64,000 nt of DNA from Schizochytrium sp. TIO01 (GCA_004764695.1 SMSO01000025.1:4442862-4506861); one strand, 5' to 3'; positions 23,177-61,085 are shown, counted from the stretch's first letter. The notes: generated by a model not told the origin, from the letters alone. Made by a program: numbers and translations.

Positions 23177-24940
23177 TTACATAACCTGCAGTTCAACGGC
23201 TGACGAAGGCACTCGGGTAGAAGAGTGGCGCGAAAGCTCCCGGGTGCGGTCATTCTCATCGCTGTGGGAAGACATGACCTTGTCTTCAGCAATGATTTCG
23301 CCAGAGTTAGATTTTTCAATCAGGGAAGGCTGAAACTTGAGTGCACGCAATGTCTCCTGCTCAAGTTTGAAAGCGCGCTTCAAGTAAATTCCAAGCGCAA
23401 CAGAACAGGCCGTACTAAAGAGCGTTGCACACAGGAAGTAAATATAAGTACCCTTGCTCTTGATCTCATCGACGTTAAAGTCCGTAAGAGAGGACTTCTC
23501 GTAGATGGCAGTCTCAATGAGGCCAAGCAAAAACGGGCCAGGGCTGGTCACAGTAAAAGCAATGGAAAGGTTCACACTGCCATCGGCAACGCCACCGGGG
23601 AAGTTTGCTGTGGAAATGACGGCCATACAACTGACAATTCCTCCGAAACCAAAACCTACAAAGCAGCATGCTAGGTAAGCACCAGGGAGAGTGGGCCAAG
23701 CGACATAAATGACGATACCTGCAAACAACAGGGCATTCCAAAGAGTGTTGACATGGGGCCAGTTGAAGTGGGCATAAATGATGGTTGAAACGAGACGCGA
23801 CAGAATAATGAGGGCCAGGAAGGTCATAGTCAGATCGAACGTGACAGCATCGGCCATGTCATCATCGACAAGATCGCCAGCAAGGTTTCCAAGAGAGTTC
23901 AAAAAGATTGAGCCAATACCATATGCAAAAAATGCAGACACGGAAGTCAGCCAAACAACCGGGCTAGTCCAGTACTCCTTGCGTGTGGGCCTGCGCTCCG
24001 TAGCATACGCAGGTGGTGGGGTGCTCGAGCGAGAGGGAATTTCGGGGGCGATGCTAGATCCAACACGAGCATGAGATTCCGATGAAAAATCTTCAAGGGT
24101 GCCACCGAGTGAGTTTTGGTGAAGATCGATCGATGTGCTTCCCGCGGCGCCAGCTTGAGTGTCGTGCAAAAGGTTGCTGCCCAAGTCCTCCTGGTACTGA
24201 TTCTGTTGTTGCGAAGTAGACTTGATGCCTTCGCTCGGGAGGACGATGGATCCAGGGACCATGGAAGGCACCGGGATGTCAGGCACCGGGAGTTCCAGAG
24301 ACGGAATTTCCTCGAATCGGTCGCGCACCATGTACTTGATACGAAAAGCAGCACATGCAATGTAGATTCCAAGAATAACAATGTAGTTGTTTGTAAGGGT
24401 GAGAGGAGTCATGCCATAGTAGAAGAGAACCACAAAAAGACAACTGCCAATACCAAGAGAGAAGGACTGAAAAGCCGTAGCCTTGCGGCGCTTGGCCTTA
24501 TCACTCGCGAAGAGGTAGTTGGTGATGGTCATACTCTGATAGAATGAGATACCCAAGCCGGCACTCCAAAGTAAGAAACCAATACACACGAGGGGCATCG
24601 ATACAGTTTCATCAGCGTTGTCAGCATGGACCACGGTACCAATCAAAAGTCCCAAACCAGCGCATACAATAATGGCACTGATAACACTCACAAGACGGTC
24701 CATCTCGCTCGGACTGAGGTTTCTGAAGTTGCTCATGTAGAACTTAGCAAAAGGATACGAGATCAGACCATAGCCAAGTTGAAGCATAACACCAGCAATC
24801 ACGACATCCGAGCTCTCGAGACCTGCAGCCTGGAGCTTAGGCGTGAGCATTGGAAACGCATAAACGATACCATTAAAGGTGCATGTGAGCGTGCATGCGA
24901 GGAAGCACGCCCATGACTCAAACCACCCCTTGCCTGTCAT
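23177..24940 (-). CDS. MFS transporter, Nodulin-like/Mch1 family, array copy 1
   Basis: About 12 hydrophobic segments in a 6+6 layout. Motifs GIVYAFPMLTPKL, SPVVWLTSVSAFFAYGIGSIFLNSLGNL, GFGFGG. Confidence 0.88.
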   Translation of the reverse strand: MTGKGWFESWACFLACTLTCTFNGIVYAFPMLTPKLQAAGLESSDVVIAGVMLQLGYGLISYPFAKFYMSNFRNLSPSEMDRLVSVISAIIVCAGLGLLIGTVVHADNADETVSMPLVCIGFLLWSAGLGISFYQSMTITNYLFASDKAKRRKATAFQSFSLGIGSCLFVVLFYYGMTPLTLTNNYIVILGIYIACAAFRIKYMVRDRFEEIPSLELPVPDIPVPSMVPGSIVLPSEGIKSTSQQQNQYQEDLGSNLLHDTQAGAAGSTSIDLHQNSLGGTLEDFSSESHARVGSSIAPEIPSRSSTPPPAYATERRPTRKEYWTSPVVWLTSVSAFFAYGIGSIFLNSLGNLAGDLVDDDMADAVTFDLTMTFLALIILSRLVSTIIYAHFNWPHVNTLWNALLFAGIVIYVAWPTLPGAYLACCFVGFGFGGIVSCMAVISTANFPGGVADGSVNLSIAFTVTSPGPFLLGLIETAIYEKSSLTDFNVDEIKSKGTYIYFLCATLFSTACSVALGIYLKRAFKLEQETLRALKFQPSLIEKSNSGEIIAEDKVMSSHSDENDRTRELSRHSSTRVPSSAVELQVM

Positions 24941-24951
24941 TTGGCGCCCAC

Positions 24952-24983
<32 letters not shown>
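24952..24983. repeat. (GCA)10 / (CTG)n triplet repeat in the putative 5' UTR of MFS copy 1
   Basis: Read directly; 11 nt upstream of the ATG at 24940. Confidence 0.95.
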
Positions 24984-24984
<1 letters not shown>

Positions 24985-27068: not shown

Positions 27069-28901
27069 TTACATAAATAAAAGCTCTAAAGCGGATGGCC
27101 CTGAGTCTGCAGAAGACCTACTCAATGCCCGCGATACGCGCGATGTTCCTTGGTGAGTTATGCGAGACAGTTCAATCTCCTGCTGGTCACGTGCACCATG
27201 GACAGCATGAGCTTCGTGACGAAAGTGGTCGCTCTGATGTTCTGCAAGCGCACGCAAAATATGACCTGGCTGGCTGTGTCGGCTAGAAGTCTCCCGTTCT
27301 AGTTTAAAAGATTTGTTCAGATAAACTCCAAGTGCTGCGGAGCAGGCGGTACTGAAAAAAGTGACACTTAGAAAATAAATGTAGGTGCTTATGCTTTTGA
27401 TCTCCGCCTCATTGAAATTCGTTAATGGAGATTTGGCATAGATTACCGTCATGAGAAGCAAAAGAACAAAGGGACCAAGGTTCATGAGTGAGAATGCGAC
27501 AGCCAGATTAATGGCGCTGTCCGCCACACCTCCAGGGAAACTGGTCGTAGAAATTACAGAGGTGCAGGTCATTATGCCACCGAAGCCAAAGCCGACCAAC
27601 CCTGTTGCTACATACGCCCCGGTGAGTGTTGGATAAGCAACGTATATGATGAGGCCTGCGAAGAGAAACACGTTCCAAATGGTGTTGATGTGTGCCCATT
27701 TAAAATGAGCGTAAATTATGAACACAAGAACGCGAGCAAATAGGACTAGCCCTAAAAAGGTCATAGTGAGAGAAAATGTAGTCTGGCTTACTGAGGACGC
27801 GTCTACTATTTCCTCAGCAAGGTTCCCCAGAGAGTAAAGGTAGATTGCCCCAATACCAAATGCAAAGAAACCTGACACGGTTGTTAGCCATACCACAGGA
27901 TCTTTCAAGTAGTCTAGTCGCGTTGGGCGTCGTGAAATCGTACGAATAAGCTGGTCGAGAGCCTGTGCTGTGCCACTCAATGACGTCTCATCCTCGTCAT
28001 CGTTGGTTTCACGCTCTAGCTCGATTGGTCTACTTTGCCGTGGTGAATAATCCAATGTGTTTCCTTCGAGGTCGTTGTTGACAATAACACCGCTACTTAC
28101 ATCTTCTGCATCATCAGTAAGCCGGCCCCTCTCTTCTAGTTCTGAATTATCCATAACCACAGCAGCCGAAGAAGAAGATGCAGAAGTTGCAAGTGCAAGT
28201 GAGTCACTCACAATGGATTCACCAGGAATATGTAAAGTAGGAATCTCGTCGAAACGATCTCGTACCATGTAACGAATGCGAACAGTTGAGATAAGAATAT
28301 ATATTGCAAAAAGCACCACATAAACATTGACCAAGGAAAAACTCGGAAGAGTGCAATAAAGCATCGCTGCAAAAAGACAGCTTGCAATTGCCTTCCCCAC
28401 TGACATAATTGAGACTGCCTTGCGCCGCAAACCCTTGTCCCTTGCAAAAAGAAAATTCACAATCGTTGTACTCTGAAAGAAAGAAACACCCATCCCAATA
28501 CTCCATAAAAAATGCCCCGTGCATGTGAGCGTCAGTGATAGTGGTACATGATGCTGATCGCTGTATATTAAACCCGAGATCAAGACACAAAATGCAATGC
28601 AAACTAGAAGAGTGCATGCCGCACTGACAAATCTATCGAGCGCAAAAGGGCTGAGATTTAGAACATTGCCATTGTAAAACTTTGCAAATGGATAAGAAAT
28701 CACCGCATACCCTAACTGCAGCATAACACCAACCATGACTATATCTGTGCCTTGTAATCCTGCTTCTTGAAGTTTGGGCGTGAAAATAGGAAATGCATAG
28801 ATAATGCCATTAAATGCACAAGTCAGGATACAAGCCAGATAACAGGCATGGGACTCAAATGCACCTCGCACGATGACTGAGGGATCCTCGGTGTCGAGCA
28901 T
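27069..28901 (-). CDS. MFS transporter, array copy 2
   Basis: Paralogous motifs; first ATG at 28901 (MLDTEDPS). Confidence 0.87.
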   Translation of the reverse strand: MLDTEDPSVIVRGAFESHACYLACILTCAFNGIIYAFPIFTPKLQEAGLQGTDIVMVGVMLQLGYAVISYPFAKFYNGNVLNLSPFALDRFVSAACTLLVCIAFCVLISGLIYSDQHHVPLSLTLTCTGHFLWSIGMGVSFFQSTTIVNFLFARDKGLRRKAVSIMSVGKAIASCLFAAMLYCTLPSFSLVNVYVVLFAIYILISTVRIRYMVRDRFDEIPTLHIPGESIVSDSLALATSASSSSAAVVMDNSELEERGRLTDDAEDVSSGVIVNNDLEGNTLDYSPRQSRPIELERETNDDEDETSLSGTAQALDQLIRTISRRPTRLDYLKDPVVWLTTVSGFFAFGIGAIYLYSLGNLAEEIVDASSVSQTTFSLTMTFLGLVLFARVLVFIIYAHFKWAHINTIWNVFLFAGLIIYVAYPTLTGAYVATGLVGFGFGGIMTCTSVISTTSFPGGVADSAINLAVAFSLMNLGPFVLLLLMTVIYAKSPLTNFNEAEIKSISTYIYFLSVTFFSTACSAALGVYLNKSFKLERETSSRHSQPGHILRALAEHQSDHFRHEAHAVHGARDQQEIELSRITHQGTSRVSRALSRSSADSGPSALELLFM

Positions 28902-30542: not shown

Positions 30543-32264
30543 TTACATGAACAGAAGCTCGAGCTCGGATGGACCTGAATCAACAGATAAAGCACGCTGC
30601 GCTTGATTACGACGGGCAGACAGCTCCGCCTCTGCACGTTCAAGCTCGTCTGCTGAAAATTCCTCATCCGGAGGGGAAAGTATCAGGGATGATGTTGTGT
30701 TTCGAAGAACTCGCATGGTTTCTTGCTCGAGCTTGAACGCTTTCTTAAGATGGATGCCAAGCGCTACAGAGCTAGCAATACCTAAAAGAGTAACCCCGAA
30801 AAGGTAAATAAAAGTGCTACTGCGTGTAACATCCGAAATTCTCCAATCTGTGAGAGGGAACTTCTTGTACACGCTTGTCTGCACAAGAGCAAGAAGAAAA
30901 GGCGCCATACTGACCAATGTGAACGCAAAAGCCAGATTGATACTGCCGTCAGCAACACCCCCGGGAAAGTTGGCAGTTGATATTATTGCAGTGCAACTCA
31001 CAATGCCTCCAAAGCCGAAGCCTACGAGCGCACTGGCCCCATATGCCCCTGCTAGCGAAGGATAACACACGTAGAATATTAATCCTCCAAAAAGCATCAT
31101 GTTCCAGAGCGTGTTGATGTGCGGCCAATTATAGTGTGCATATATTACAATAACCGCAATGCGAGCGGTGATGATGAAAGCTAGGAAGGTTAAGACAAGA
31201 TAAAATGTTGTCTGATCTACTTGATCCGCTTCCACGAGCTCCTTCGCAAGGTCCCCAAGAGAATACAAAAACACGCCACCAGTGCCATAGGCAAAGAACA
31301 CGGAGACTGAAGTCAGCCATACCAATGGACTTGTAAGATAGTCCCGATGTGTAGGTCTTCTAGAAGTCATGTGGACTGGAGGTGGAGTGAATGCGCGTAA
31401 ATTCGTATTCGATGGATCTAGATCGAGAGACACGTTCGACGAAGTTTCGCTTTCTTGGTCTCTAACTAGTTCGGAGCTTGATAGCTGAGGCCAGCGTCCT
31501 GGGGTGCTCTCCTCTATGCTGGCGCCGACCTCAGCCGGTGCATCCGCACTAGACCTCCGAGGTGGTGAGATGGACGGAAGTACTGAGGACCCTGAGACAA
31601 CAAATTGTTGCGGAATTTGGAGCGTCGGAATTTCATCGAAACGGTCCCGAACCATGTAGCGAATACGAAATGTCGAGTTGAGGATTGAAATTGCAAAAAC
31701 CACAACGTAATCGTCTGCTAAAGTGAAGTATGGGAGGGTGTAGTAGAACAGGGCTGTGAAAAGACAGCTGCCGACGCCCAAACCGATTGACATAATAGAA
31801 ATGGCTTTGCGTCGCAACGCTTTGTCCTTTGCAAATAAGTAGCTCGCAATTGTTGTGCTCTGGTAGAACGAAACTCCCAATCCTAAACTAAACCAAAAAT
31901 ATCCTAGACATGTCAAAGGCAGTGAGAGGGATTCATTGTGATATTCTGCATAGCGAACGAGTCCCATAAGGAAACAAAGTGACAGGCTCACAACTAAAGT
32001 GCTCACAACGCTGACGAGGCGGTCGAGCGTAAAAGGACTGAGGTTCATGAAATTACCCATATAAAATCTCGCAAAGGGGTATGAAATGATGCCGTAACCT
32101 AGAAGCAACATAACACCGACCATAACAACCCCTGAGCTATCGAATCCTGCCTTGAGAAATTTGGGTGTGAGAATCGGAAATGCATACACAAATCCATTAA
32201 ACATACAAGTTAGAGTACATGCTAAATAGCATGCGTGTGACTCCCAGGACCCCTTGCCAATCAT
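30543..32264 (-). CDS. MFS transporter, array copy 3
   Basis: 573 aa, paralogous motifs, ATG start. Confidence 0.88.
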   Translation of the reverse strand: MIGKGSWESHACYLACTLTCMFNGFVYAFPILTPKFLKAGFDSSGVVMVGVMLLLGYGIISYPFARFYMGNFMNLSPFTLDRLVSVVSTLVVSLSLCFLMGLVRYAEYHNESLSLPLTCLGYFWFSLGLGVSFYQSTTIASYLFAKDKALRRKAISIMSIGLGVGSCLFTALFYYTLPYFTLADDYVVVFAISILNSTFRIRYMVRDRFDEIPTLQIPQQFVVSGSSVLPSISPPRRSSADAPAEVGASIEESTPGRWPQLSSSELVRDQESETSSNVSLDLDPSNTNLRAFTPPPVHMTSRRPTHRDYLTSPLVWLTSVSVFFAYGTGGVFLYSLGDLAKELVEADQVDQTTFYLVLTFLAFIITARIAVIVIYAHYNWPHINTLWNMMLFGGLIFYVCYPSLAGAYGASALVGFGFGGIVSCTAIISTANFPGGVADGSINLAFAFTLVSMAPFLLALVQTSVYKKFPLTDWRISDVTRSSTFIYLFGVTLLGIASSVALGIHLKKAFKLEQETMRVLRNTTSSLILSPPDEEFSADELERAEAELSARRNQAQRALSVDSGPSELELLFM

Positions 32265-33305: not shown

Positions 33306-35090
33306 TTACATAAACATCTTTTCTAGCGCAGATGGCTCAAGATCCGTAGTCGGTGAATTCCTTTCTCGGGAGTAGTAAGTAGAATTCATTTCTATTATCT
33401 GTTCTTGACATGATGCATCAGAAGCGGGGACTAGCTCAGGGACTGCAGGCTCGCTACGAAGCATCGATAAGCTTTCAAGTTCTAGCTTGGCAAGATGCTT
33501 CAGTTGAATGCCCAACGCAATAGAGCAGATCGTACTAAACAATGTAGCACTTAGAAAGTAAATATACGTGCTGGTACTTTTGATCTCAACCACATCGAAA
33601 CTTGAGAGAGAGGATTTTTCATAAATAACTGTCTGTATAAGACCAAGTATGAATGGGCCTGGACTGGTCACAGTGTATGCAATGGCGAGATTCATGCTCC
33701 CATCAAGAACTCCTCCTGGAAAACTGACTGTCGAAATCACAGCCATACAACTCACTATGCCTCCAAATCCGAACCCAATAAATGCAGAAGAAAGGTACGC
33801 TCCTGCTAAGCTGGGATATGCTACATAAATAACAAGACCTCCGAATAACATAGCGTTCCACATGGTATTAACATGTGGCCAATTCCAGTGCGCGTAGATA
33901 ATGGTGCCGACCAAGCGAGCAAGGATGATCATGGCCAGGAATGTCATTGTCAAATTGAAGGTTAATTTGTCAGCTTCTTCATCAGCGTTCACCAGAGCTT
34001 GTGCAAGGTTTCCTAGTGAATTCAAAAAAATTGAACCAATACCAAATGCGAAGAAGGCAGAGATTGCCGTGAGCCACACAACTGGGCTTTCCAGATACTC
34101 CTTCCGGGTTGGCCTGTGCTCGACAAATACTGGAGATTGTTGATCGCTTGTCGCGGGAGCAATAATGCCTGAGCTAATTCGAAGATGTGAATCATCGTTG
34201 TGAACAAGTCTCAGCTGATTTCCCTCAGCATTTGGCATAGGGGAGTGGATATCTCTCAGAGCAAGTTCGTTGGTCCCGTCAGACCCCGGTATTTCGAGAT
34301 CCTGGTGCCTCGAAGTCGCAAGAGAAGAAGAAGATGCAGAGGGTTCTTCTGATTCTCGTAATGTTGTATCAAGAGATGGCAAAACCAATGACCCAGGGAT
34401 CATTGAAGGCCCTGGGATCCGCAATGTTGGGATCTCTTCAAATCGATCGCGAACCATATACTTGACTCTGAGAACAGAGAACAACAAAAAGATGCAAAGA
34501 ATTGTAACGTAGTTGTTGACCAAAGACAGCGGTGTCATAGCATAGTAGAATAGGATTACAAAGGAACAACTTCCGATCCCCACAGCAAATGTCATGAAAG
34601 CAACTGCCTTACGACGGAGTGCTTTATCGCTAGCAAACAGAAAGTTGACAATTGTCATGCTTTGGTAGAATGAAAAACCTAACCCTGCGCTCCATAGGAA
34701 AAAACCAACGCAAACTAATGGCAATGAAAGAGGTGTTTGCTTATTCTCTGCGTGTACGACTGCCGCAATGAGCAAACATAGAGCTCCGCATACAATAATT
34801 GTAGTTATAATACTCACCAAACGATCCATGCCGAAAGGACTTAGATTCATGAAGTTGCTCGTATAAAATTTCGCGAATGGGTATGAGATGCTACCAAATC
34901 CGAGTTGCAACATCACACCAGCAATCACAACATCCGAGCTGTCAAGACCAGCGTCTTGCAACTTTGGAGTGAGCATTGGAAAGGCATAAATAATTCCATT
35001 AAAGGCACATGTTAATGCGCATGCCCAGAAGCATGCTTGCGATTCGAACCAGCCCTTAGCAGCATGTTCCGTATTGCTCCTACTAAACAT
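33306..35090 (-). CDS. MFS transporter, array copy 4
   Basis: 594 aa, paralogous motifs, ATG start. Confidence 0.88.
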   Translation of the reverse strand: MFSRSNTEHAAKGWFESQACFWACALTCAFNGIIYAFPMLTPKLQDAGLDSSDVVIAGVMLQLGFGSISYPFAKFYTSNFMNLSPFGMDRLVSIITTIIVCGALCLLIAAVVHAENKQTPLSLPLVCVGFFLWSAGLGFSFYQSMTIVNFLFASDKALRRKAVAFMTFAVGIGSCSFVILFYYAMTPLSLVNNYVTILCIFLLFSVLRVKYMVRDRFEEIPTLRIPGPSMIPGSLVLPSLDTTLRESEEPSASSSSLATSRHQDLEIPGSDGTNELALRDIHSPMPNAEGNQLRLVHNDDSHLRISSGIIAPATSDQQSPVFVEHRPTRKEYLESPVVWLTAISAFFAFGIGSIFLNSLGNLAQALVNADEEADKLTFNLTMTFLAMIILARLVGTIIYAHWNWPHVNTMWNAMLFGGLVIYVAYPSLAGAYLSSAFIGFGFGGIVSCMAVISTVSFPGGVLDGSMNLAIAYTVTSPGPFILGLIQTVIYEKSSLSSFDVVEIKSTSTYIYFLSATLFSTICSIALGIQLKHLAKLELESLSMLRSEPAVPELVPASDASCQEQIIEMNSTYYSRERNSPTTDLEPSALEKMFM

Positions 35091-47448: not shown

Positions 47449-49011
47449 TTAAATATCAATAGATCGTGGACGTGCACTTTCCTTTTCGCAGTTTGTCTCT
47501 GAAATCATTTGTGGCAACTCAGCTTGAAGAGTTTGCAAAGAAGCTATTTCGAGCTTGTAATCCTTTCGAATCTGCAATCCTAGAAACACAGAAGCAGCTG
47601 TGCTAACAAAAGATGCACATAAAAAGTAGATAAAAGAAGCTAAATATTCAAAATCATCGTCATTGAAGCCTGCCAACGAAGATTTCTCGTATACAACAGT
47701 TTCAATGGAGCCAATCAAAGTTGGCCCAAAACTCATTACAGTCACTGCCACTGACAGGTTGATGCTGTAGTACGCGACGCTCCCCGGAAAGTTCGTCGAG
47801 GCGATTACCGAAGGAGCGCTACTAACTCCACCAAATCCAAGACCAACAAGTGCAGCTGAGCAGTAAGCACCAACTAAGGTCGGTGCGCTCAAATAAACAA
47901 TAATGCCTAAGAAAAGCGTAGCATTCCACAACGTCATCACGTGTGGCCAATTCAAGTAGGCGTAGATAATTGTGGTGGTCAATCGTGCAAGAATCACGAG
48001 ACACAAGAATGACAATGTCAGATTGTATGTCACGTCATCAATCGCATCTGCTCCATCTACCAGGGAAGTGGCAAGGTTGCCTAAGGAGCTCAGATACGCT
48101 GAGCCAACACCAAAGCCAAAAAACGTAGAAATAGACGTAAGCCAAACAACCTTACTCTTGAGATAATCCATGAGCTTCGGGGCGAGGGATGTTGCTGTAG
48201 GTGCAGTTACAGATGCTGGGGTAGAGCTGCTATCAGGAGAAGAAGTCACCGCAGGATCAGGGCTCTCTTCACGTGGAAGCACAACGGAGCCAGCTTGAAC
48301 TTCTGATTGAGAAGATGCGTTTGAAGGGGATGAAAGCATAGGCGCTTCTTTGTCGTCATCAGAAAGAGGATCAAAGCGACCCCTTTCCATGTACATTAGA
48401 CGAAGTGCAGTCAGAACTGCGTAAGCACCAATCAAAATCACAAAATTGTAAGTAAGTGACAACCGTGTGAACACATAGTGAAACAGCAATGTATATCCTA
48501 CGCTACCAACACCAATCGCGAAGGCCATCGAAGCAACAGCCATACGACGGCGGCTCTTGTTAGTAGCAAAGATATAGCTGACAAGACTCAAACTATGAAA
48601 GGATGAGATGCCGAGTCCAGCGCCCCAAAGGAAGAATGCAAAGCTGAGCGCACCTCCATTCACTGTAACATCCTCGTGTAGATCTGTAGGAGCCACCACG
48701 CCAATCATGATCGCAATTGACGTCAAGACGAGAAAACACGCGAATGCATTCACAACGCGGTCCATCCATGCAGGGCTCAAGTTGAGTGCCGTGCTCGAAT
48801 AAAACCGGCCAAATGGGTATGAGATGAGTCCATAGCCCAGCTGAATTAATACACCCGTAATAACAACTTGAGCGCTATTGAACCCTGCTAGTTGCAACTT
48901 TGGTGTGAGCATTGGGAAAGCATATTGAATACCGTTCATAAGGTTCGTCAGAGTGCAGACCACTAAGCATGCGGTTGCATCCCCCAACCATTTTGACGAG
49001 CTTGCTTGCAT
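47449..49011 (-). CDS. MFS transporter, array copy 8 (subfamily B)
   Basis: First ATG at 49011 (MQASSS). Motifs FHSLSLV, RRMAVASM, YYSINLS. Confidence 0.87.
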   Translation of the reverse strand: MQASSSKWLGDATACLVVCTLTNLMNGIQYAFPMLTPKLQLAGFNSAQVVITGVLIQLGYGLISYPFGRFYSSTALNLSPAWMDRVVNAFACFLVLTSIAIMIGVVAPTDLHEDVTVNGGALSFAFFLWGAGLGISSFHSLSLVSYIFATNKSRRRMAVASMAFAIGVGSVGYTLLFHYVFTRLSLTYNFVILIGAYAVLTALRLMYMERGRFDPLSDDDKEAPMLSSPSNASSQSEVQAGSVVLPREESPDPAVTSSPDSSSTPASVTAPTATSLAPKLMDYLKSKVVWLTSISTFFGFGVGSAYLSSLGNLATSLVDGADAIDDVTYNLTLSFLCLVILARLTTTIIYAYLNWPHVMTLWNATLFLGIIVYLSAPTLVGAYCSAALVGLGFGGVSSAPSVIASTNFPGSVAYYSINLSVAVTVMSFGPTLIGSIETVVYEKSSLAGFNDDDFEYLASFIYFLCASFVSTAASVFLGLQIRKDYKLEIASLQTLQAELPQMISETNCEKESARPRSIDI

Positions 49012-50006: not shown

Positions 50007-51806
50007 TCATCGAATTTGAAGCTCCAGCGAATGGGCATGGGTCACAGAGGCGGGGTGATCAGGAGAAGCAGTTAGTGGCGCATCTCGATCAGTTTTGTTA
50101 TCACTACTAGCACCATTGTCAGCAGAGTTAGGAGCACCGTGGCCATCTAGCATGATGGAAGTCTCGTCGGGCAGAATAACTTCTTGATGCAAAGTGGCCT
50201 GAGTCTGCATCTCAGCGGCTCGCATGGTGGACATTTCGAGTTTGTAGTCCTTGTGAATTTCATATCCCAGGAGAACTGAGCAAGCTGTGCTTACAAATGA
50301 TCCACAGAGAAAGTAAACAAAGGAACTCATATAATCAAAGTCCCGGTCGCGGAAACCTGCAAGAGATGATTTCTCGTGAATAATAGTTTCCATGTACCCA
50401 ATGAGGAATGGACCAATTGCCATGACTGACGCAGCAACAGACAGGTTTAAGCCGTAGTATGCGATGCTGCCGGGGAAATTAGTAGTCGCAATGACAGCAG
50501 GCACACTACTTACACCGCCAAAGCCAAAGCCCACAACAGCAGCTGAGAAGTACGCTCCAAGTAAGTTGGGCGTTGTCATGTAGACCAGAACTCCCACGAA
50601 GACCAAGAGGTTCCAGAGTGCCATGACGTATGGCCAATTCATATGAGCGTAGATAATTGTTGTGATGAGACGCGCCAAAATAACAAAGCACAAAAAGCAC
50701 AACGTAAGGTTGTAGGTCACAGTGTCTGCAGCTTCATCTGTACTGACCAAGGTTGCAGCAAGGTTTCCAAGAGAACTTAGATAGGTTGAGCCAACCCCAA
50801 AGCCAAAAAAGGTAGAAACGACGGTGTACCAGACGATGGGGCTGGTCACATAGTCCTTAAACTTTGGCGGCGTCGAGGAGATGTTGGCATTGGGAGGTGG
50901 CGTCGTTGGTAGAGGCTGGACGGGAGTCTGCATCGCAGTGGTCGTGACAGGCATAGCTACATCCATAATTGAGGATGATCTTCGCTCAGCTAACTCAATG
51001 GATGTGATGCCCCCCTCATTCTGGGTAAGCCGCTGCTCTTGTTCCTGCCGTTGCTGCTGCGGAGTCGTGGATACATCGTTCGGAAGAACGACCGCCCCTG
51101 AGCCGGTGGTTGGGATAACTGAGGATAGTTCAGGAAGCTCAACTGGCAGCTCTAAAACAGGCACAGACTCGAAGCGACCGCGCGCCATATACTTAAAGCG
51201 AAAGCCACCAAGAATTGCGTAGAGACCCAGAAGAATGACAAAGTTATATGTAAGGGTGGTAAGAGAGAACACGTAATGGTACATCAGTGTGTAAACAACA
51301 GCACCAATTCCGAGCGAGAAGGTCATCGAGGCAACACCCATGCGTCTCTGCCTTTTGTCTGCCGCAAAAATAAAATTAATCAAACTCAGGCTGTGAAAGG
51401 AAGAAAGGCCGAGTCCGCTTCCCCAGAGAAGGAATGCAAAGCACAATACCTTTCCGTTGATGTCCGTATTGTGCACTTCTGCTTCATGTGCCAGGCCGAC
51501 CATAAGTAGCGTGGAAATGATGACAAGGCTGAGTGCAAACGCATTACAAGCGCGATCCATGCCTAAAGGGCTTAAATTACATAAGTTACTCGGGTAGATC
51601 AGTCCGAATGGATAGCATACACTGTTGTAGCCGAGCTGGATCATAACACCCGCAAGGACAATCTGCGAGCTTGAAACGCCTTCTGCCAACAACTTGGGCG
51701 TCAACATAGGAAAGGCATACATAATTCCATTCACAAACATGGTCATGCCGCACACTGCAAAACATGCTCGTGATTCAAGCCATCCTGTCGTCGAAGCTTC
51801 CGTCAT
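50007..51806 (-). CDS. MFS transporter, array copy 9 (subfamily B)
   Basis: First ATG at 51806 (MTEAST); paralogous motifs. Confidence 0.87.
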   Translation of the reverse strand: MTEASTTGWLESRACFAVCGMTMFVNGIMYAFPMLTPKLLAEGVSSSQIVLAGVMIQLGYNSVCYPFGLIYPSNLCNLSPLGMDRACNAFALSLVIISTLLMVGLAHEAEVHNTDINGKVLCFAFLLWGSGLGLSSFHSLSLINFIFAADKRQRRMGVASMTFSLGIGAVVYTLMYHYVFSLTTLTYNFVILLGLYAILGGFRFKYMARGRFESVPVLELPVELPELSSVIPTTGSGAVVLPNDVSTTPQQQRQEQEQRLTQNEGGITSIELAERRSSSIMDVAMPVTTTAMQTPVQPLPTTPPPNANISSTPPKFKDYVTSPIVWYTVVSTFFGFGVGSTYLSSLGNLAATLVSTDEAADTVTYNLTLCFLCFVILARLITTIIYAHMNWPYVMALWNLLVFVGVLVYMTTPNLLGAYFSAAVVGFGFGGVSSVPAVIATTNFPGSIAYYGLNLSVAASVMAIGPFLIGYMETIIHEKSSLAGFRDRDFDYMSSFVYFLCGSFVSTACSVLLGYEIHKDYKLEMSTMRAAEMQTQATLHQEVILPDETSIMLDGHGAPNSADNGASSDNKTDRDAPLTASPDHPASVTHAHSLELQIR

Positions 51807-53926: not shown

Positions 53927-54230
53927 GTATTCTCACAGGTAACTAACTTTCTTTTTACCTACTCAGTGCTACAACGGCAAATGCGAGGAAGGTTGGAATG
54001 CAACATGTTTATCTGAAGAGATTAATTGTTACTTGGAATAATAAGTTATTTTTACTTCTTTCTTTTTCTTTTCGTTTTTAAAATAACATGAACGAAGGTG
54101 CTTCCTATTTGCGTTAATTGGGATAAACCTTTTCGTGGGACAAACAATGCTTTAATTTAAAATGTTTCAGATTGAAGCACACGCCCAGCCTGGGAAGTCT
54201 AAAACGCAATTGCCCAAAGGAGTGCGTTGC

Positions 54231-55964
54231 TTACCGGATCTGAATTTCAAGGCTGGAGCTGGGCTGCGTATTATTCTGTATTGTGCCCCGAAGTGAGCTC
54301 GTCGCATTTGCTGACGTGGAGATTGCAGTTAAAGGCGGTTGCTCATCTGCGGCAAGCAGTGCTGCTTGCTCGAGCTTATACTCCTTGTTGATTTCGCGGC
54401 CTAAAAAATAGGAGCTTATTGTGCTTACACAGGAAGCACACAAGAAGTAGATAAAGGAACCAAAGTTTTCTGCCCCATCTGCATGAAATCCAGCCAAAGA
54501 AGACTTTGCATAAATCACTGTTTCTGTGTATCCAATGAGAAACGGGCCAAGACTCATAACCATTGCAACCACAGAGAGGTTAATGCTGTAGTATGCACTT
54601 GCGCCAGGAAAATTGGTCGTGGCAATTACAGCTGGGACACTGCTGATGCCACCATACCCTAGACCCACCAAAGCAGAAGAGAGGTACGCCCCAAGTAATG
54701 TCGGTTTGCTCAGGTAGACCACAACGCCAGCAAAAAGGGTGATATTCCATAAAGTAAGTACATGTGGCCAATTCATGTGAGCATAGATGACCGTGGTGAT
54801 TAATCGAGACAGGATAATTAGGCACAGAAATGCTAGAGTCAAATAGTATGTTACTGTTTCCGCCTCCTCCTCGTTCAAGTCTGATGCTAGGTTCCCCAGT
54901 GAGCTCAAATACGCAGAACCTACACCATACCCAAAAAAGATTGAGACAGACGTAAGCCAAACAACACGGCTGTATAAGTAGTCATACAAAGTTGGAGCTT
55001 GAGACGCCACTGCTCGAGCCTCCCCTTGTCCCTGGGAAATAGTCGAAGCAGATGAACCCGATGGTACTGTAGCCTGTTCTTGAGCAGTCATAGCAGATGG
55101 GTGTGATGGAGGTGTGGCAGTTAAATCTAGCGCCTCCTTTGATTGAAACGAATCTTTTGTAGATACTCTCAACGGGTGCATCCTCGCACCGACCTCACCT
55201 TCTTCCCTGACGTGGGGCCGAACAACTGCGTTTGAGCTCATCGTGCGCATGAGGGTAGGCACTTCAGGCATTTCGATCATTGGAACAGCCTCGAAGCGAC
55301 CTCGAACCATGTATACAAGTCGAGTCGCCGTGAGGATTGCATAAGCTGCAAACAGGGCAACAAAATTGTACATAAGCGACAACTTTGTCAATAAGTAGTG
55401 GTAAAGCAGTGTGTACAAGACACTGCCTATACCAAGTGCAAAGGTCATGGATGCAACTCCCATACGCCTTTGGCTTTTATCTGCAGCAAAAATAAAGTTG
55501 ACAAGGCTTAGACTGTGGAATGTTGATAAACCGAGGCCACTACCCCATACAAGAAATGCAAAGCTCAGAACTGGCCCGTTCACCTTGCGTTCGCTAGACG
55601 CCTCCGTCGGCGCAACAGTGCCGATCATTATAATGAAGGAGACGAGTACAAGTGAGCATGCAAATGCACTGACCACTCGGTCCTTCGCCGCTGAGCTCAA
55701 TTGTAAGCGTGAGCTAGAATAGAAGCGGCCAAATGGATAAGACACCAAGCCATAACCAAGTTGAATGAGTACACCGGCGATGACGACTTGTGAGCTGTCA
55801 AACCCAGCGTCTTGCAGCTTTGAGGTGAGCATTGGGAACGCGTACATTATGCCGTTCATCATCATAGTTATAGCACAAGCCACATAACAAGCTCGCAGGT
55901 CTTGCCAGCCCTGTGCGACGCCCCCATCATCTTTGTTTGAAAATCTCTCTGTAGACGACGCCAT
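54231..55964 (-). CDS. MFS transporter, array copy 10 (subfamily B)
   Basis: ATG at 55964 (MASSTERF), 7 nt after a CTAACCAG acceptor; paralogous motifs. Confidence 0.87.
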   Translation of the reverse strand: MASSTERFSNKDDGGVAQGWQDLRACYVACAITMMMNGIMYAFPMLTSKLQDAGFDSSQVVIAGVLIQLGYGLVSYPFGRFYSSSRLQLSSAAKDRVVSAFACSLVLVSFIIMIGTVAPTEASSERKVNGPVLSFAFLVWGSGLGLSTFHSLSLVNFIFAADKSQRRMGVASMTFALGIGSVLYTLLYHYLLTKLSLMYNFVALFAAYAILTATRLVYMVRGRFEAVPMIEMPEVPTLMRTMSSNAVVRPHVREEGEVGARMHPLRVSTKDSFQSKEALDLTATPPSHPSAMTAQEQATVPSGSSASTISQGQGEARAVASQAPTLYDYLYSRVVWLTSVSIFFGYGVGSAYLSSLGNLASDLNEEEAETVTYYLTLAFLCLIILSRLITTVIYAHMNWPHVLTLWNITLFAGVVVYLSKPTLLGAYLSSALVGLGYGGISSVPAVIATTNFPGASAYYSINLSVVAMVMSLGPFLIGYTETVIYAKSSLAGFHADGAENFGSFIYFLCASCVSTISSYFLGREINKEYKLEQAALLAADEQPPLTAISTSANATSSLRGTIQNNTQPSSSLEIQIR

Positions 55965-56772: not shown

Positions 56773-58524
56773 TCATGCAACGTGCATAGGTAATGGGGTC
56801 GAACTATGTGGGATTTGCTGCAAAGAAGTTCGTGTCTGCTGCAGCTCGACCGTTTGGCGCTGCTGGAGCCTTTCCGAGGCAGTCTCTTTGGCAATTTCTC
56901 GACCAAGGAGCAAGGACGAAACCGTACTAATCATGGAACCACATGCAAAATAAAAGAATGAGCTCATGTCAGCATCGTTGAGCTCTGAAAGTACAGAGGT
57001 CTCGTAAATTATCGTCTCAAGGTATCCCACAAGAAATGGGCCAACACGCATCACTGTTGCAGTAAGTGCGAGATTCATACTGTATGAAGAAACGTGTCCA
57101 GGGAAATTACTCGTCACAAGAACTGTCGGACTACTGCAAAGTCCTCCATATCCGAAGCCAACGAGAGATGCTGAAAGATATGCATTTCCTAGAGATGGTT
57201 TGGCAACATACATGATTACCCCTGTAAAGAGGAAGACATTCCAAATTGCAATAACGTACGCCCAGTTCAGCTGAGCGTACACAAATGTTACAACTAGGCG
57301 AGAAAAGACTACCATACTTAGAAAAGCGAGCGTGCAGCGGAATATCACTGTGTCCACTTCAGCGTCATCTTTGTCCTCAACCAAAGTATAAGCAAGGGTC
57401 CCTATGGAATTTAAAAAGGTCACACCCACACCAAAACCAAACATTGTAGAAATGAAGGTCAGCCAAACAATACGATTGAAAATATAATCCTGAATCGTTG
57501 GACCAGGTGGATGGGTCGATATTCCAGAATATACCGACGTATCAAGGCCAGAGGCATCCTGCGATCCATTGAGGTGGTTCCGAGAAGACAAATCAGGGTT
57601 TGCACTCGATAAACTTGGCGCAGAATCTGGTCCTTGCTCCTCGGACACATCTGTGCTACTGTGAACCCCGTCACTACCCGTCGCCATGTCACGAAGGCGA
57701 CCATCGGTATCTGACATTTCAGGTGCAGCAATGGTAGGTGGTTCACTCTGGTCTAAATACTCTCCCTGCGGATACGTTGAGGACCTTGAGGAGTCTGATG
57801 GCAGGATAGATGGAAGGTCAAGAACTGGAACTGCTTCGAAGCGGCCCCGCACCATATATTTGAAGCGAAATGCTGCCAACACAATGTAAGCAGCAAGTAG
57901 CAAGCCGATGTTTGCTGTGAGCGAGAACTCGTCGAAGAAGTTATGATACAACAAGGTGTAGAAAACAGCTCCCAATGCAGCGGAAAACCCCATCGATGCT
58001 ACGCCCATCCGCCTTTGACTTCGGTCTGATGCAAAAATAAAGTTCACAATACTCAAGCTATGGTATTGCGAAAGACCCAGACCACTGCCCCAAACGGTGA
58101 AAGCAAATGTCAAGGCATCACCTCCACTGATGCCTGGACCGCTCCAATTCGATGATGAACCTGTCGATGTCGACCCAGATTCATCTTGCATGCTGGACAA
58201 TATCACAATCATGAGAAGCAGACCGCCCGCAATAATTGAAGATGAAAGCGCCGTTATTGCACGGTCCATGCCTACGGTACTTAAATTAAGAAACGAGCTA
58301 GAGTAGAAATGACCAAATGGAAAGGACACCAGTCCAAATCCCAGTTGAATGCAGACGCCAGCCAAAATGATCTGTGAGCGGTCGAAACCAGCATCTTGAA
58401 ACTTTGACGTGAACATGGGGAAGGCATACATGAGCCCTACCATTCCACTCGTTAGTGCGCACGCAAGGTAACACGCTCGAGACTCAAGCCAGCCCTGCGC
58501 TACAGCGCCATCCTCCCCGCTCAT
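56773..58524 (-). CDS. MFS transporter, array copy 11 (subfamily B)
   Basis: 583 aa, ATG start, paralogous motifs. Confidence 0.87.
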   Translation of the reverse strand: MSGEDGAVAQGWLESRACYLACALTSGMVGLMYAFPMFTSKFQDAGFDRSQIILAGVCIQLGFGLVSFPFGHFYSSSFLNLSTVGMDRAITALSSSIIAGGLLLMIVILSSMQDESGSTSTGSSSNWSGPGISGGDALTFAFTVWGSGLGLSQYHSLSIVNFIFASDRSQRRMGVASMGFSAALGAVFYTLLYHNFFDEFSLTANIGLLLAAYIVLAAFRFKYMVRGRFEAVPVLDLPSILPSDSSRSSTYPQGEYLDQSEPPTIAAPEMSDTDGRLRDMATGSDGVHSSTDVSEEQGPDSAPSLSSANPDLSSRNHLNGSQDASGLDTSVYSGISTHPPGPTIQDYIFNRIVWLTFISTMFGFGVGVTFLNSIGTLAYTLVEDKDDAEVDTVIFRCTLAFLSMVVFSRLVVTFVYAQLNWAYVIAIWNVFLFTGVIMYVAKPSLGNAYLSASLVGFGYGGLCSSPTVLVTSNFPGHVSSYSMNLALTATVMRVGPFLVGYLETIIYETSVLSELNDADMSSFFYFACGSMISTVSSLLLGREIAKETASERLQQRQTVELQQTRTSLQQIPHSSTPLPMHVA

Positions 58525-59219
58525 GGCAAGGCCGTGAGCTCTTGGCAGGTTTCGTCTGGGATTAAAAACTCTCTACACCCAAGTTCAGTTTAAGGTCTTG
58601 TGCAAGGTATCGAGCCCAGCGTCGTGTATCATTCTTGATTTGCGTCGATGGATTACTTGAGGCTTGGTTGTCTCGACTTGATAGTGACACACCCTGAATC
58701 CATCGCGATAGGAAAAAGCAAGGAACGTACGCATGGTACTCCTAAAGTAAACCGTAGACGAAAGGATAAGGACGAATGTACCAGGTCAAGTATCAATTGG
58801 CCATCGTGCATGATTAAACGTTTTCTGCCTGCATGAAACAAGCAAAAACGTAGATACATATTTGCAAAAATGAAATCTTAATAGGGGTGTCAGAAGTGTG
58901 TGAGAAGTTGGAGAAGTTATTCCCTAGTTTCACTTTCTGCTTGTTTTAATAAATCTCAGCAAAGTGTTCCAAAGACAGAGGATATTTTAGAGCAATTTGT
59001 TAAGGAAGCACAGCATATTTTAGCGAGTAATTAAAGACATACTATAGATACATAGAAACATAAACTAAAGATGTAGAAGTCTCGTAGTTGAAAAGGACTT
59101 ATGATACGAACGAAGCACCGAAAGATATTAATAATAAAAAGAAGAATAACGATAGCCTAGTACAATAAACACGGAACTGCTTGCTTAGATCACCTTCAAA
59201 AAGAAAAAAGCCCAGCTTC

Positions 59220-61085
59220 TCAGGTAATTTGGAGGACTCGCCTAGGCAAGGATGGTGGAGACGAAGAGGAGCCGTGGGACCGACTTTCATCGTTTCGAGA
59301 AGCCTCTCCAAAGATACTATCTTCTGGTTGTGAGTGAGTATCACCCTCCGAAACTTCGACGAGATCAGTTAGGTGGTCTTTTTGGATCTCTCTCCCAAGT
59401 AAAAACGAGCATGCTGTGCTTACGAAAGATCCACATAGAAAATAGATAAATGTACTAAAGTTCTCAAAGTCCTCGTCATTAAAGCCTGCCAAAGATGACT
59501 TTTCGTAAATGACAGTTTCGAGATATCCAATAAGAAAAGGTCCAACACGCATGACAGTCGTTGTGACTGCAAGGTTCATTCCATAGTAGGCAATACTTCC
59601 AGGGAAGTTGCTTGTGCAAATAACAGCCGGACTGCTGCTAAGACCTCCAAAGCCAAGCCCAACTAGGGATGCTGACATATATGCACCGATCAAGGTCGGC
59701 TTAGCCGTATATACTAAAATTCCTACAAAGAGAAGCACATTCCATACTGTCATTACGTACGGCCAATTTAAGTGCGCATAGATGATTGTTGTAATGAGAC
59801 GCGAAAGAATAATGAAGCATAGAAAGGCCAAGGTTAAGTAGTATGTGACAAGCTCGACCTGGACTTCACCCTCTACCAATGTACCTGCAAGATTACCCAA
59901 TGAACTAAGGTAGGTGGAACCGACGCCGAAACCAAAAAAGGTAGATACGGATGTGAGCCATACAATGCGACTTGAAACATAGTCATGAAATGTTGGAGCC
60001 CTCTGTGCACTAGCAACAATCGGGCGGGAGCGTGTGGAGGAGTTGACATTATATCCTTCAGTGGTGTGCTCCTCGCGTCCACTTGAATCCCCTGAATTTG
60101 ACTCGTCATACGCAAAACTTGTTGAGCTACTTTCTGCTGGAGAATGCGCCGATGCGGTTGCCGCGGCTGCTGACACGGTATGGGCTTGGTGCGACTGATT
60201 CGCAAGGGAATCTCCTGGAAACACGCTGGAGAGTCGTGAGGTCGTACTGGATGCGCTTGAGGTGCTTCCTGAACGAAGAATAGAAGGTAATTGTGGGAGT
60301 TCAAGGGAGGGGGGCTCCTCAAAGCGGCCTCTTACCATATACTTAATTCTAAAGCCCGTAAGGACAAGATATCCACCAAGCAGAACAACAAAGTTATACA
60401 TGAGCGAGAGGTAAATAAGGGCATAGTGGTAGATGAGCGTGTAGATCACGGCACCAATTCCAAGAGCAAACGCCATAGAGGCAACTGCCATTCTTCGCTG
60501 AGCCTTGTCTGCAGCAAAGATGAAGTTGACGAGGCTAAGACTATGGAACTGCGAAAGCCCAAGCGCACAACCCATCATCATGAATGCAAAGCTGAGAAGT
60601 TGAGCGTTAACCGCATCACCTGTCTCTTCTGCACGTGCAGTTGCTGCAATCATAATCAGGAGACACACAATCATAAGTGAGCAAGCAAGAATATTCATTG
60701 CGCGGTCCATAGCGGCCGGCCCAAGGCTGAAAACTGAGTTTGAGTATACGTGTCCAAATGGAAATGCCACAAGTCCAAAACCGAGCTGGATCAAGACGCC
60801 TGCAATGACGACCTCTGAGCTGCTCAGGCCTGCGTTGAGCAACTTGGGCGTTAGCATGGGAAACGCATACATGATCCCATTTGTCGCACTCGTCGTCGCA
60901 CAAGTTACATAGCACGCTCTAGATTTGGCCCATCCCTGATTTTCTCGCCCTGCTGCCAAGCCTTCGACTTCCTCTGCCTCTCGGCCTTCTCCGAAGTCTC
61001 TTCTGTCATTATTGGCGCTCTCCAAGGTGGCATCTGCACTTGCATCTGCGGAAGCATTTCTCGCCATCCTCGCCATCCCCGCCAT
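59220..61085 (-). CDS. MFS transporter, array copy 12 (subfamily B)
   Basis: First ATG at 61085 (alternatives 61076, 61067); paralogous motifs. Confidence 0.87.
   Translation of the reverse strand: MAGMARMARNASADASADATLESANNDRRDFGEGREAEEVEGLAAGRENQGWAKSRACYVTCATTSATNGIMYAFPMLTPKLLNAGLSSSEVVIAGVLIQLGFGLVAFPFGHVYSNSVFSLGPAAMDRAMNILACSLMIVCLLIMIAATARAEETGDAVNAQLLSFAFMMMGCALGLSQFHSLSLVNFIFAADKAQRRMAVASMAFALGIGAVIYTLIYHYALIYLSLMYNFVVLLGGYLVLTGFRIKYMVRGRFEEPPSLELPQLPSILRSGSTSSASSTTSRLSSVFPGDSLANQSHQAHTVSAAAATASAHSPAESSSTSFAYDESNSGDSSGREEHTTEGYNVNSSTRSRPIVASAQRAPTFHDYVSSRIVWLTSVSTFFGFGVGSTYLSSLGNLAGTLVEGEVQVELVTYYLTLAFLCFIILSRLITTIIYAHLNWPYVMTVWNVLLFVGILVYTAKPTLIGAYMSASLVGLGFGGLSSSPAVICTSNFPGSIAYYGMNLAVTTTVMRVGPFLIGYLETVIYEKSSLAGFNDEDFENFSTFIYFLCGSFVSTACSFLLGREIQKDHLTDLVEVSEGDTHSQPEDSIFGEASRNDESRSHGSSSSPPSLPRRVLQIT

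What the first reader, a model, noticed from the sequence alone, without database searches (positions are those of the whole stretch)
23177..61085. Twelve-member head-to-tail array of divergent Nodulin-like MFS transporters
Seen: 12 intronless, co-oriented paralogues spaced about 2.5-4.3 kb apart, all keeping intact TM cores while spacers, central loops and tails are unalignable by eye. This suggests old duplications retained by selection. Known: the segment WLTSVSAFFAYGIGSIFLNSLGNL matches the Nodulin-like/NFD4/Mch1 MFS branch. That branch also includes the tandem Trypanosoma PAD carboxylate transporters that sense differentiation signals. The canonical motif A (GxxxDxxGRR) is replaced by a lineage-specific loop (YPFxxFYxxxxxNLxPxxxDR). 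Inference: a diversified nutrient-uptake or transceptor repertoire of an osmotrophic protist, possibly life-stage regulated. This is my best candidate for an undescribed system in this window.
Basis: partly seen in the sequence, partly recalled or inferred. Interest (0 to 1): 0.8.

Follow-up and report, generated by a model that had tools for sequence, protein, structure and literature searches.

The report
Twelve-gene tandem transporter array, two subfamilies
A marine decomposer protist carries twelve intact, side-by-side genes for membrane carriers that are predicted to move small acids or amino acids; they grew from an old pair of two different carriers, a common way of widening what a cell can take up or release, here in a carrier subfamily that has no name yet.

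Summary
The array is real: 12 intact, single-exon, minus-strand ORFs (g1-g12), 36-75% identical in the core, with saturated synonymous sites and unrelated spacers. The host is an Aurantiochytrium-type thraustochytrid. The proteins have the 12-helix MFS fold and lie on the MCT/OxlT/Nodulin-like branch, but do not pass the Nodulin-like Pfam test (0 of 12; NFD4_C 1 of 12), so they are an unnamed sister subfamily, also found in Hondaea, a diatom cluster and a foraminiferan. The array is two old subfamilies side by side: A (g1-g7) and B (g8-g12). Hondaea has the same A-then-B set under consecutive locus tags (1A+3B), its B copies amplified independently. Strain polymorphism shows strong purifying selection (core 22 synonymous, 2 non-synonymous). 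The one invariant residue is the TM8 arginine that binds the carboxylate in SfMCT/MCT; SfMCT's proton-binding His and Arg-orienting Asn are absent, and pocket residues differ between A and B. Likely function: carriers of carboxylate-bearing solutes with diversified pockets. The PAD-like signalling idea has no support from these tests. An ordinary kind of expansion in an uncharacterised subfamily.

The parts
23177..24940 (-). g1, subfamily A MFS carrier, 587 aa; reference numbering (R382 = TM8 Arg)
   Evidence: ORF; MFS_1 39.7 bits, above cut-off; AF2 model and fold searches; exact protein listed under transcriptome sources
27069..28901 (-). g2, subfamily A, 610 aa; Lys at the SfMCT L145-equivalent pocket position
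   Evidence: whole-ORF RNA? contigs in X1, X3, X10
30543..32264 (-). g3, subfamily A, 573 aa; sister of g2
   Evidence: mmetsp member identical to it; RNA? contigs
33306..35090 (-). g4, subfamily A, 594 aa
   Evidence: partial transcriptome protein P0005
36705..38297 (-). g5, subfamily A, 530 aa, short tail
   Evidence: MFS_1 39.4 bits, above cut-off; RNA? contigs
39906..41486 (-). g6, subfamily A, 526 aa, no C-terminal tail; possibly under relaxed selection
   Evidence: 7 amino-acid differences (5 in the core) to its copy in another isolate, P0003
44102..45727 (-). g7, subfamily A, 541 aa; sister of g6
   Evidence: RNA? contigs in 3 of 3 runs, which were found with this stretch
47449..49011 (-). 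g8, subfamily B, 520 aa
   Evidence: mmetsp member; RNA? contigs
50007..51806 (-). g9, subfamily B, 599 aa
   Evidence: mmetsp member; RNA? contigs
54231..55964 (-). g10, subfamily B, 577 aa; the only copy above the NFD4_C cut-off
   Evidence: NFD4_C 29.3 bits vs cut-off 27
56773..58524 (-). g11, subfamily B, 583 aa; extra Arg in TM11, insert before TM4
   Evidence: mmetsp member; RNA? contigs
59220..61085 (-). g12, subfamily B, 621 aa; extra Arg in TM11; sister of g11
   Evidence: mmetsp members; RNA? contigs in 3 of 3 runs, one with 8 loose T letters at 59107 that may be a poly(A) tail

Best explanation
The array is a tandem expansion, seven plus five copies, of an old pair of MFS carriers (subfamilies A and B) that are predicted to move carboxylate-bearing solutes such as small organic acids or amino acids by alternating access, each copy likely tuned to a different substrate range or condition. 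Shown: the 12 genes, the two clades, their presence in the same order in Hondaea, purifying selection, the MFS fold of the g1 model, and the invariant TM8 Arg aligning with SfMCT R280. Inferred: the Arg binds the substrate's carboxylate as in SfMCT, MCTs and OxlT; since SfMCT's proton site (H250) and Arg-orienting Asn (N276) are missing and no acidic residue is conserved mid-helix, transport is likely facilitated diffusion or exchange, as in MCT8/MCT10; subfamily A keeps a narrow hydrophobic pocket (Gln at Y119, Val/Met/Leu at F335, Phe/Tyr at F359), while B has a wider, polar one (His, Ser/Cys, small residues), which would admit bulkier substrates and could take a proton on the His. Copies likely arose by local unequal crossing-over long ago; direction of transport and cell location are unknown.
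For: Fold: AF2 model of g1 has 12 long helices in two bundles, pLDDT 68 overall, mostly 80-95 in helices; Foldseek's ten best rows are SfMCT (L-lactate carrier; best E 6e-8) and OxlT, then MCT1. R382 is the only invariant column among 26 family sequences and aligns with SfMCT R280 (directly; via P0047) and with MCT2's TM8 Arg; R280A abolishes lactate binding and transport, and F335A shifts specificity to a bulkier substrate (PMC6573034, passages); OxlT R272 is the matching TM8 Arg (PMC10070484, passages). NCBIfam's SfMCT model hits 5 of 32 family members, best E 1.8e-16. Pocket positions split cleanly by clade, Hondaea genes included. Tree: A 99/99 and B 96/98; one clade of all 12 window genes rejected, p-AU 2.8e-11; Hondaea FCC1311_071892 (A), 071902, 071912, 071922 (B) carry consecutive locus tags and share a longest contig of 158086 bases; its three B copies form their own clade 100/100. 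Selection: of 50 coding differences among the 80 rows displayed, core 22 synonymous to 2 non-synonymous (pN/pS 0.028, p 3e-12), loops and tails 13 to 13; 0 of 22 displayed indels fall in ORFs that make up 52% of the laid DNA. Transcript-derived proteins exist for 7 of the 11 copies looked up; runs guessed to be RNA give whole-ORF contigs for 9 of 12.
Against: No substrate was tested. Identity to all solved structures is 8-16%, and VIA-align does not single out the carboxylate carriers: SLC37A4, SotB, OxlT tie at Z 35-36, and FLVCR2 (choline), MCT10 and LAT4 follow within 2. The family profile's best sequence hit in the PDB is the glucose carrier GlcP (E 1e-5); SfMCT scores only E 0.17, so pocket mapping rests on low-identity alignments and may be a residue off. 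Y119, essential in SfMCT, is Gln or His here. The NCBIfam SfMCT model does not hit g1. Different pockets are also compatible with drift at tolerant sites. SNP tables were cut to 40 of 116 and 40 of 133 rows, and showed none in g6 or g12. Whether the Aurantiochytrium B copies postdate the split from Hondaea is unresolved (p-AU 0.30).
Confidence: 0.6

Rival explanations
1. The copies carry much the same substrate; the array was kept for dosage or for division of labour by condition, life stage or compartment, using unrelated promoters and variable tails.
For: Spacers share no similarity and no shared upstream or downstream word beyond shuffles; tail length after the last helix runs from 1 to 78 residues, and a C-terminal motif (S/A-L-E-x type) is present in 8 of 12, absent in g5, g6, g11, g12 (pattern drawn after seeing the tails). 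Core pocket Arg is the same in all.
Against: Pocket positions differ systematically between A and B in two genera, and g2 (Lys at L145 site) and g11/g12 (Arg in TM11) add charges; core identity is as low as 36%, far more than dosage copies show.
Confidence: 0.2
2. They carry inorganic anions (nitrate, nitrite, chloride) like the legume symbiosome Nodulin-like N70 proteins (function recalled, from no call).
For: Closest named eukaryotic family is Nodulin-like/NFD4: hhalign of the family profile to a Nodulin-like protein gives 98% probability over 444 columns; the three weak HMM hits that I scanned at the tail are Nodulin-like or NFD4_C proteins. A lone Arg suits any anion.
Against: 0 of 12 hit PF06813; B's small pocket residues suggest room for larger solutes; nothing here points to nitrate use.
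Confidence: 0.08
3. One reading: some copies act like Trypanosoma PAD proteins, importing a carboxylate that triggers a life-stage switch (zoospore release or settlement).
For: PAD1/PAD2 are surface carboxylate transporters needed to perceive citrate/cis-aconitate (PMC3827541, passages); same broad branch and tandem layout (layout recalled); long disordered loops and tails could take regulation.
Confidence: 0.07
4. Neutral birth-and-death: surplus copies with no separate role, on their way to loss.
For: g6 differs from its copy in another isolate at 7 residues, 5 in the core, against 0-1 core differences for most other copies (one g3 copy 3); g6 has lost its tail.
Against: All 12 frames intact despite saturated synonymous sites; core pN/pS 0.028; no indel in ORFs among 22 shown.
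Confidence: 0.05

Closest known systems
SfMCT / SLC16 monocarboxylate transporters (PDB 6g9x, 6hcl, 6zgs; human MCT1, MCT2, MCT10)
   Same: 12-helix MFS fold; best Foldseek rows; TM8 Arg in register with R280; Y29, Y331 (as Phe/Tyr) and, in subfamily A, F359 kept; TM1 reads YAFP as in MCT2's YAFPK (seen by eye output, not aligned there by the program).
   Different: About 15% identity; H250 is Ser, N276 is Ile/Val, Y119 is Gln (A) or His (B); no Lys after YAFP and no Asp four residues before the Arg (the MCT1 K38/D309 proton pair, recalled); motif A absent in both halves.
Nodulin-like / NFD4 / Mch1 family (PF06813, PF23262)
   Same: Nearest named eukaryotic family: hhalign 98%, TM7 start and TM8 Arg align, NFD4_C above cut-off in g10, long central loop.
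   Different: No PF06813 hit in any of 12; P0047 (Nodulin-like) sits on a very long branch outside the family; Nodulin-like keeps N-x-x-G-R and both motif-A aspartates, these do not.
OxlT, oxalate:formate antiporter (OFA family; PDB 8hpk)
   Same: Fold match Z 35.6, rmsd 3.4 over 382 residues; TM8 Arg.
   Different: No Lys in TM11 in any of 12, whereas K355 is conserved and essential in OFA (PMC10070484, passages); only g11 and g12 have a TM11 Arg; Asn268 equivalent missing.
Trypanosoma brucei PAD proteins
   Same: Carboxylate carriers of a protist (PMC3827541, passages); tandem array and Nodulin-like affinity are recalled, from no call.
   Different: No sequence comparison was made; no evidence of signalling or stage control here.
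Tandem nutrient-transporter expansions in osmotrophs (e.g. Kluyveromyces MFS sugar carriers PMC6335341, rust oligopeptide transporters 10.1101/2022.04.20.488971, oomycete carboxylic acid transporters PMC6063262)
   Same: Local amplification and divergence of a carrier gene under purifying selection (search listings and abstract openings only).
   Different: Different families; here two old subfamilies were amplified side by side and independently in two genera.

Membership tests
Major facilitator superfamily | 12 transmembrane helices in two six-helix bundles | tested here: met
   g1 model; Foldseek E 6e-8, probability 1.0; VIA Z 35.9, rmsd 3.0, 372 aligned. Only g1 gave a usable model; the others align to it.
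Major facilitator superfamily | Pfam MFS_1 match | tested here: met
   6 of 12 hit, 2 of 12 above the curated cut-off; Atlas neighbours of the Hondaea A protein are MFS_1 clusters at score 0.99.
Major facilitator superfamily | Motif A (G-x3-D-R/K-x-G) in the TM2-TM3 or TM8-TM9 loop (consensus recalled; common, not universal) | tested here: not met
   0 of 12 match anywhere; an Asp at the start of TM3 (D81) is conserved instead.
Nodulin-like / NFD4 | PF06813 Nodulin-like domain in the N-terminal half | tested here: not met
   0 of 12 at E<=1; among 24 other hits scanned only one family member (P0028) has a sub-threshold hit, while the outsiders P0047 and P0049 pass.
Nodulin-like / NFD4 | PF23262 NFD4_C domain in the C-terminal half | tested here: inconclusive
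   1 of 12 (g10) above cut-off, 29.3 vs 27 bits; none in the other 11.
Nodulin-like / NFD4 | Full-length homology to a Nodulin-like protein | tested here: met
   hhalign A3 vs P0047: probability 98.05, E 1.5e-13, 444 columns, 18% identity. Shows kinship, not membership.
SLC16 / SfMCT monocarboxylate carriers | Carboxylate-binding Arg in TM8 | tested here: met
   R382 invariant in 26 of 26, aligned to SfMCT R280 and MCT2.
SLC16 / SfMCT monocarboxylate carriers | Proton site H250 and Arg-orienting N276; Y119 | tested here: not met
   Ser in 12 of 12, Ile/Val in 12 of 12, Gln/His in 12 of 12 by sequence alignment; mapping is through low-identity alignments.
SLC16 / SfMCT monocarboxylate carriers | NCBIfam SfMCT model | tested here: inconclusive
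   5 of 32 family members hit at E<=0.01, best 1.8e-16; g1 does not; which members hit, and whether above cut-off, was not shown.
OFA (OxlT) | Second basic residue, Lys in TM11 | tested here: not met
   No Lys in g1 positions 452-481 in any of 12; Arg at 466 in g11 and g12 only.
Trypanosoma PAD proteins | Orthology to PAD1-8 and stage-specific surface expression | not tested
   No PAD sequence was obtained; no stage-resolved expression data were available.
Any carrier family | Measured transport of a substrate | not testable with these tools
   Needs uptake or efflux assays.

The most novel reading that the evidence does not exclude
An unnamed marine-protist branch of the MCT/OxlT/Nodulin-like carriers, without motif A, exists in thraustochytrids as a linked two-gear pair: A, uncoupled carriers with a narrow pocket, and B, carriers that couple to protons through a TM4 histidine facing the TM8 arginine, a coupling site not seen in SfMCT or OxlT. 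Both were amplified in place, independently in two genera, into a graded panel that takes up the organic acids and amino acids released by the ectoplasmic net, with some copies (g2, g11, g12) gaining a second positive charge for dicarboxylates.
Probability: 0.15. Interest if true: 0.6.

Novelty: new variant of a known kind. Interest (0 to 1): 0.35.

Why it matters
Thraustochytrids are important decomposers in coastal water and industrial DHA producers, often fed on organic acids or amino acids, yet my searches found no paper naming their carboxylate carriers. A ready-made series of twelve natural variants with one fixed Arg and two pocket types is a compact test bed for how MFS carriers change substrate and coupling, and a candidate locus for feedstock engineering. 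As a genomic pattern, a tandem transporter array is common and would not surprise a specialist.

Tried and rejected
No whole genome was held, so copies elsewhere in the genome and synteny of flanking genes could not be checked. Paralogue dN/dS could not be computed: synonymous sites are saturated in 65 of 66 pairs; strain polymorphism was used instead. Assembly artefact and recent gene conversion rejected. A 13th copy or relics in the spacers, including the 237-codon stop-to-stop frame at 46047-46760: none found. Shared promoter or 3' words: none above shuffles. PDB sequence search with the 12-gene profile gave only a low-complexity match to ASF1. Single-sequence fold of g8 failed (pLDDT 41.5) and was not used. 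No listed run is on record as RNA; runs guessed as RNA gave no contig over g6 and only short pieces over g4 and g10 in 3 of 3 runs: lack of cover is no evidence of silence, and contig depth cannot rank genes. The Atlas could not read the window protein; the Hondaea homologue was used. Monophyly of g8-g12 without Hondaea was neither shown nor rejected. The word-based homologue searches are incomplete (each missed proteins that another found), so the Hondaea count of four is a minimum. Three look-ups of earlier findings returned nothing. One paper id was not held, so the primary PAD paper was not read. No complex prediction was run: no binding claim is made.
Full report
Observation. The window holds twelve minus-strand ORFs of 520-621 aa between 23177 and 61085, here g1 (lowest coordinate) to g12. 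Starts are 2560-4241 bases apart; no further copy or fragment lies in the window, and spacers share only simple repeats. The proteins align over two hydrophobic halves joined by a 64-113-residue loop. Core identity is 36-75%, synonymous sites are saturated in 65 of 66 pairs and the longest shared DNA run is 19 bases. A public DNA run has depth in all 30 bins of both stretches laid. The array is real and old.

Host. Near-identical proteins carry a transcriptome label whose organism name begins 'Auranti'; that these sets are Aurantiochytrium limacinum is recalled, and its lineage is Labyrinthulomycetes, Thraustochytrida. The nearest other named species is Hondaea fermentalgiana.

What the proteins are. 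Pfam MFS_1 hits 6 of 12 (2 above cut-off), NFD4_C 1 of 12, Nodulin-like 0 of 12. The AF2 model of g1, built on the 12-sequence alignment, has twelve long helices with a disordered loop and tail. Foldseek ranks SfMCT, OxlT and MCT1 first; VIA-align gives Z near 35 to several MFS families without singling one out. A profile search of 1.84 billion representatives found 36 proteins at E<=0.001: the array's own copies, Hondaea, a set of mostly unnamed divergent proteins including two from the foraminiferan Bolivina and one whose cluster holds a Fragilariopsis protein, and at the weak end three proteins that scan as Nodulin-like or NFD4_C (I scanned 24 proteins, leaving out the window's own copies and most short fragments). 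The family profile matches a Nodulin-like protein at 98% probability, but that protein lies on a very long branch outside the family. So this is an unnamed subfamily next to Nodulin-like/NFD4 on the MCT/OxlT branch, not a Nodulin-like member by Pfam's test.

History of the array. Trees split the twelve into A (g1-g7) and B (g8-g12), each a contiguous block and each joined by Hondaea genes (99/99 and 96/98). A single clade of all twelve is rejected (p-AU 2.8e-11). The simplest reading: an A-B tandem pair predates the two genera and was amplified locally and separately, 7+5 here and at least 1+3 in Hondaea. Whether some of the B duplications here predate the split is open (p-AU 0.30). Neighbouring sisters (g2-g3, g6-g7, g11-g12, all starred) fit unequal crossing-over (inference).

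Selection and expression. Laying four runs on 22700-42500 and 43300-63000 displayed 40 of 116 and 40 of 133 differences; 50 of these 80 lie in ORFs. In the core 22 are synonymous and 2 not (pN/pS 0.028, p 3e-12); in loops and tails 13 and 13 (0.32) (two changes in one g7 codon were counted apart; none of the displayed rows fell in g6 or g12). None of the 22 displayed indels lies in an ORF, though ORFs are 52% of the laid DNA. Transcriptome-derived proteins exist for g1, g3, g4, g8, g9, g11 and g12, 7 of the 11 copies looked up; g5 was not looked up. Three runs guessed to be RNA give whole-ORF contigs for g1, g2, g3, g5, g7, g8, g9, g11 and g12, ending in spacers where the DNA run goes on; these runs were found with the g6-g9 stretch and are not on record as RNA. 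Against uniform constraint: g6 differs from its copy in another isolate at 7 residues, 5 in the core.

How it likely works. R382 in TM8 is the only invariant column among 26 sequences. It aligns with SfMCT R280 and the TM8 Arg of MCT2. In SfMCT R280 binds the carboxylate and R280A kills binding and transport; N276 orients it; H250 is the proton site; F335A widens specificity; MCT8 and MCT10 are facilitated carriers (PMC6573034, passages). In OxlT R272 and K355 bind the two carboxylates (PMC10070484, passages). By alignment the array proteins have Ser at H250, Ile/Val at N276 and no TM11 Lys; the acidic residues listed lie near helix ends. Pocket positions split by clade in both genera: A has Gln at Y119, Val/Met/Leu at F335, Phe/Tyr at F359; B has His, Ser/Cys and small residues, with Pro at F338. 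g2 has a Lys at the L145 site and g11/g12 an Arg in TM11. I therefore take them to be alternating-access carriers of carboxylate-bearing solutes, probably uncoupled or exchanging, with B able to hold larger substrates and possibly a proton on its His. Because an inside-negative membrane opposes uncoupled anion uptake (general knowledge), neutral amino acids, exchange or acid export are as plausible as organic-acid uptake. All of this is inference from alignments at about 15% identity; the best PDB sequence hit of the family profile is a glucose carrier.

Rivals. Same substrate with different regulation or location (0.2); inorganic anions as in N70 nodulins (0.08; function recalled); PAD-like signalling (0.07; PAD function from PMC3827541 passages; no PAD sequence compared); neutral surplus (0.05).

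Is it in print? Searches for thraustochytrid + nodulin-like, Aurantiochytrium + MFS + transporter + zoospore, Aurantiochytrium + monocarboxylate transporter and Aurantiochytrium + gene family expansion + labyrinthulomycetes + transporters + genome returned 0 papers; some searches returned listings with nothing on this array (seen as listings and abstract openings only). The library lacks most subscription papers, and I read no supplements; omics tables could list these genes by ID. Tandem expansions of transporter genes are widely reported (listing).

Verdict. Observation confirmed; interpretation partly supported. A well-kept two-subfamily array of an uncharacterised MFS branch with a testable substrate clue: a new variant of a known kind, interest 0.35.

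Noticed in passing
window 18327-22106 (+): 1259-aa largely low-complexity protein with a weak WW match near the start and four EF-hands at the end, convergent with g1.
   Followed up: partly
window 11864-12859 (-): Electron transfer flavoprotein alpha subunit; GC3 0.86 against 0.40-0.55 for the array genes, suggesting that the array genes are not codon-optimised like highly expressed genes.
   Followed up: partly
window 8034-8954 (+): 306-aa protein with an HxD...H pattern and a weak PhyH match (E 0.008), likely a 2-oxoglutarate/Fe(II) oxygenase.
   Followed up: no
window 5190-5876 (-): 228-aa protein with a Hemingway/CFAP97 domain, a flagellar-type protein.
   Followed up: no
window 3274-4242 (-): 322-aa predicted membrane protein: signal-like start, Cys-rich stretch, two hydrophobic segments and a Ser-Pro repeat tail; no confident Pfam family.
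   Followed up: no
C-termini of g1-g4, g7-g10; Hondaea 071902, 071912: After unalignable tails, a short S/A-L-E-x-type motif recurs at the very end in 8 of 12 copies (shuffled mean 0.13; pattern drawn after seeing the tails), a possible sorting signal.
   Followed up: partly
window 23188-28828 and 56413-61794: Single contigs of runs guessed as RNA span g1-g2 (X3) and g11-g12 (X1), and cover 0.6-1.5 kb of GC-rich DNA upstream of g1, g9 and g12: long leaders, overlapping UTRs or read-through. A contig across two genes shows no single transcript.
   Followed up: no
window 39906-41486 (g6): g6 lacks the tail and differs from another isolate's copy at 7 residues, 5 in the core, one at an otherwise conserved Met; may be under relaxed selection.
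   Followed up: partly
window 42876-43142: 76-base tandem repeat (2.6 copies, 92% matches) in the g6-g7 spacer, with short related pieces nearby in inverted orientation.
   Followed up: no
window 53358-53419: (AACTTG)n microsatellite in the g9-g10 spacer that recurs elsewhere in the genome (depth 741 against about 50 in the DNA run).
   Followed up: no
P0028, P0032, P0037 cluster, P0031, P0045: The same unnamed subfamily occurs in the foraminiferan Bolivina, in a cluster with a Fragilariopsis protein and in records named 'MFS family permease'; most of these keep Gln four residues before the TM8 Arg and His in TM4, so A's Gln and the loss of the Arg-orienting residue look derived in thraustochytrids.
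   Followed up: partly
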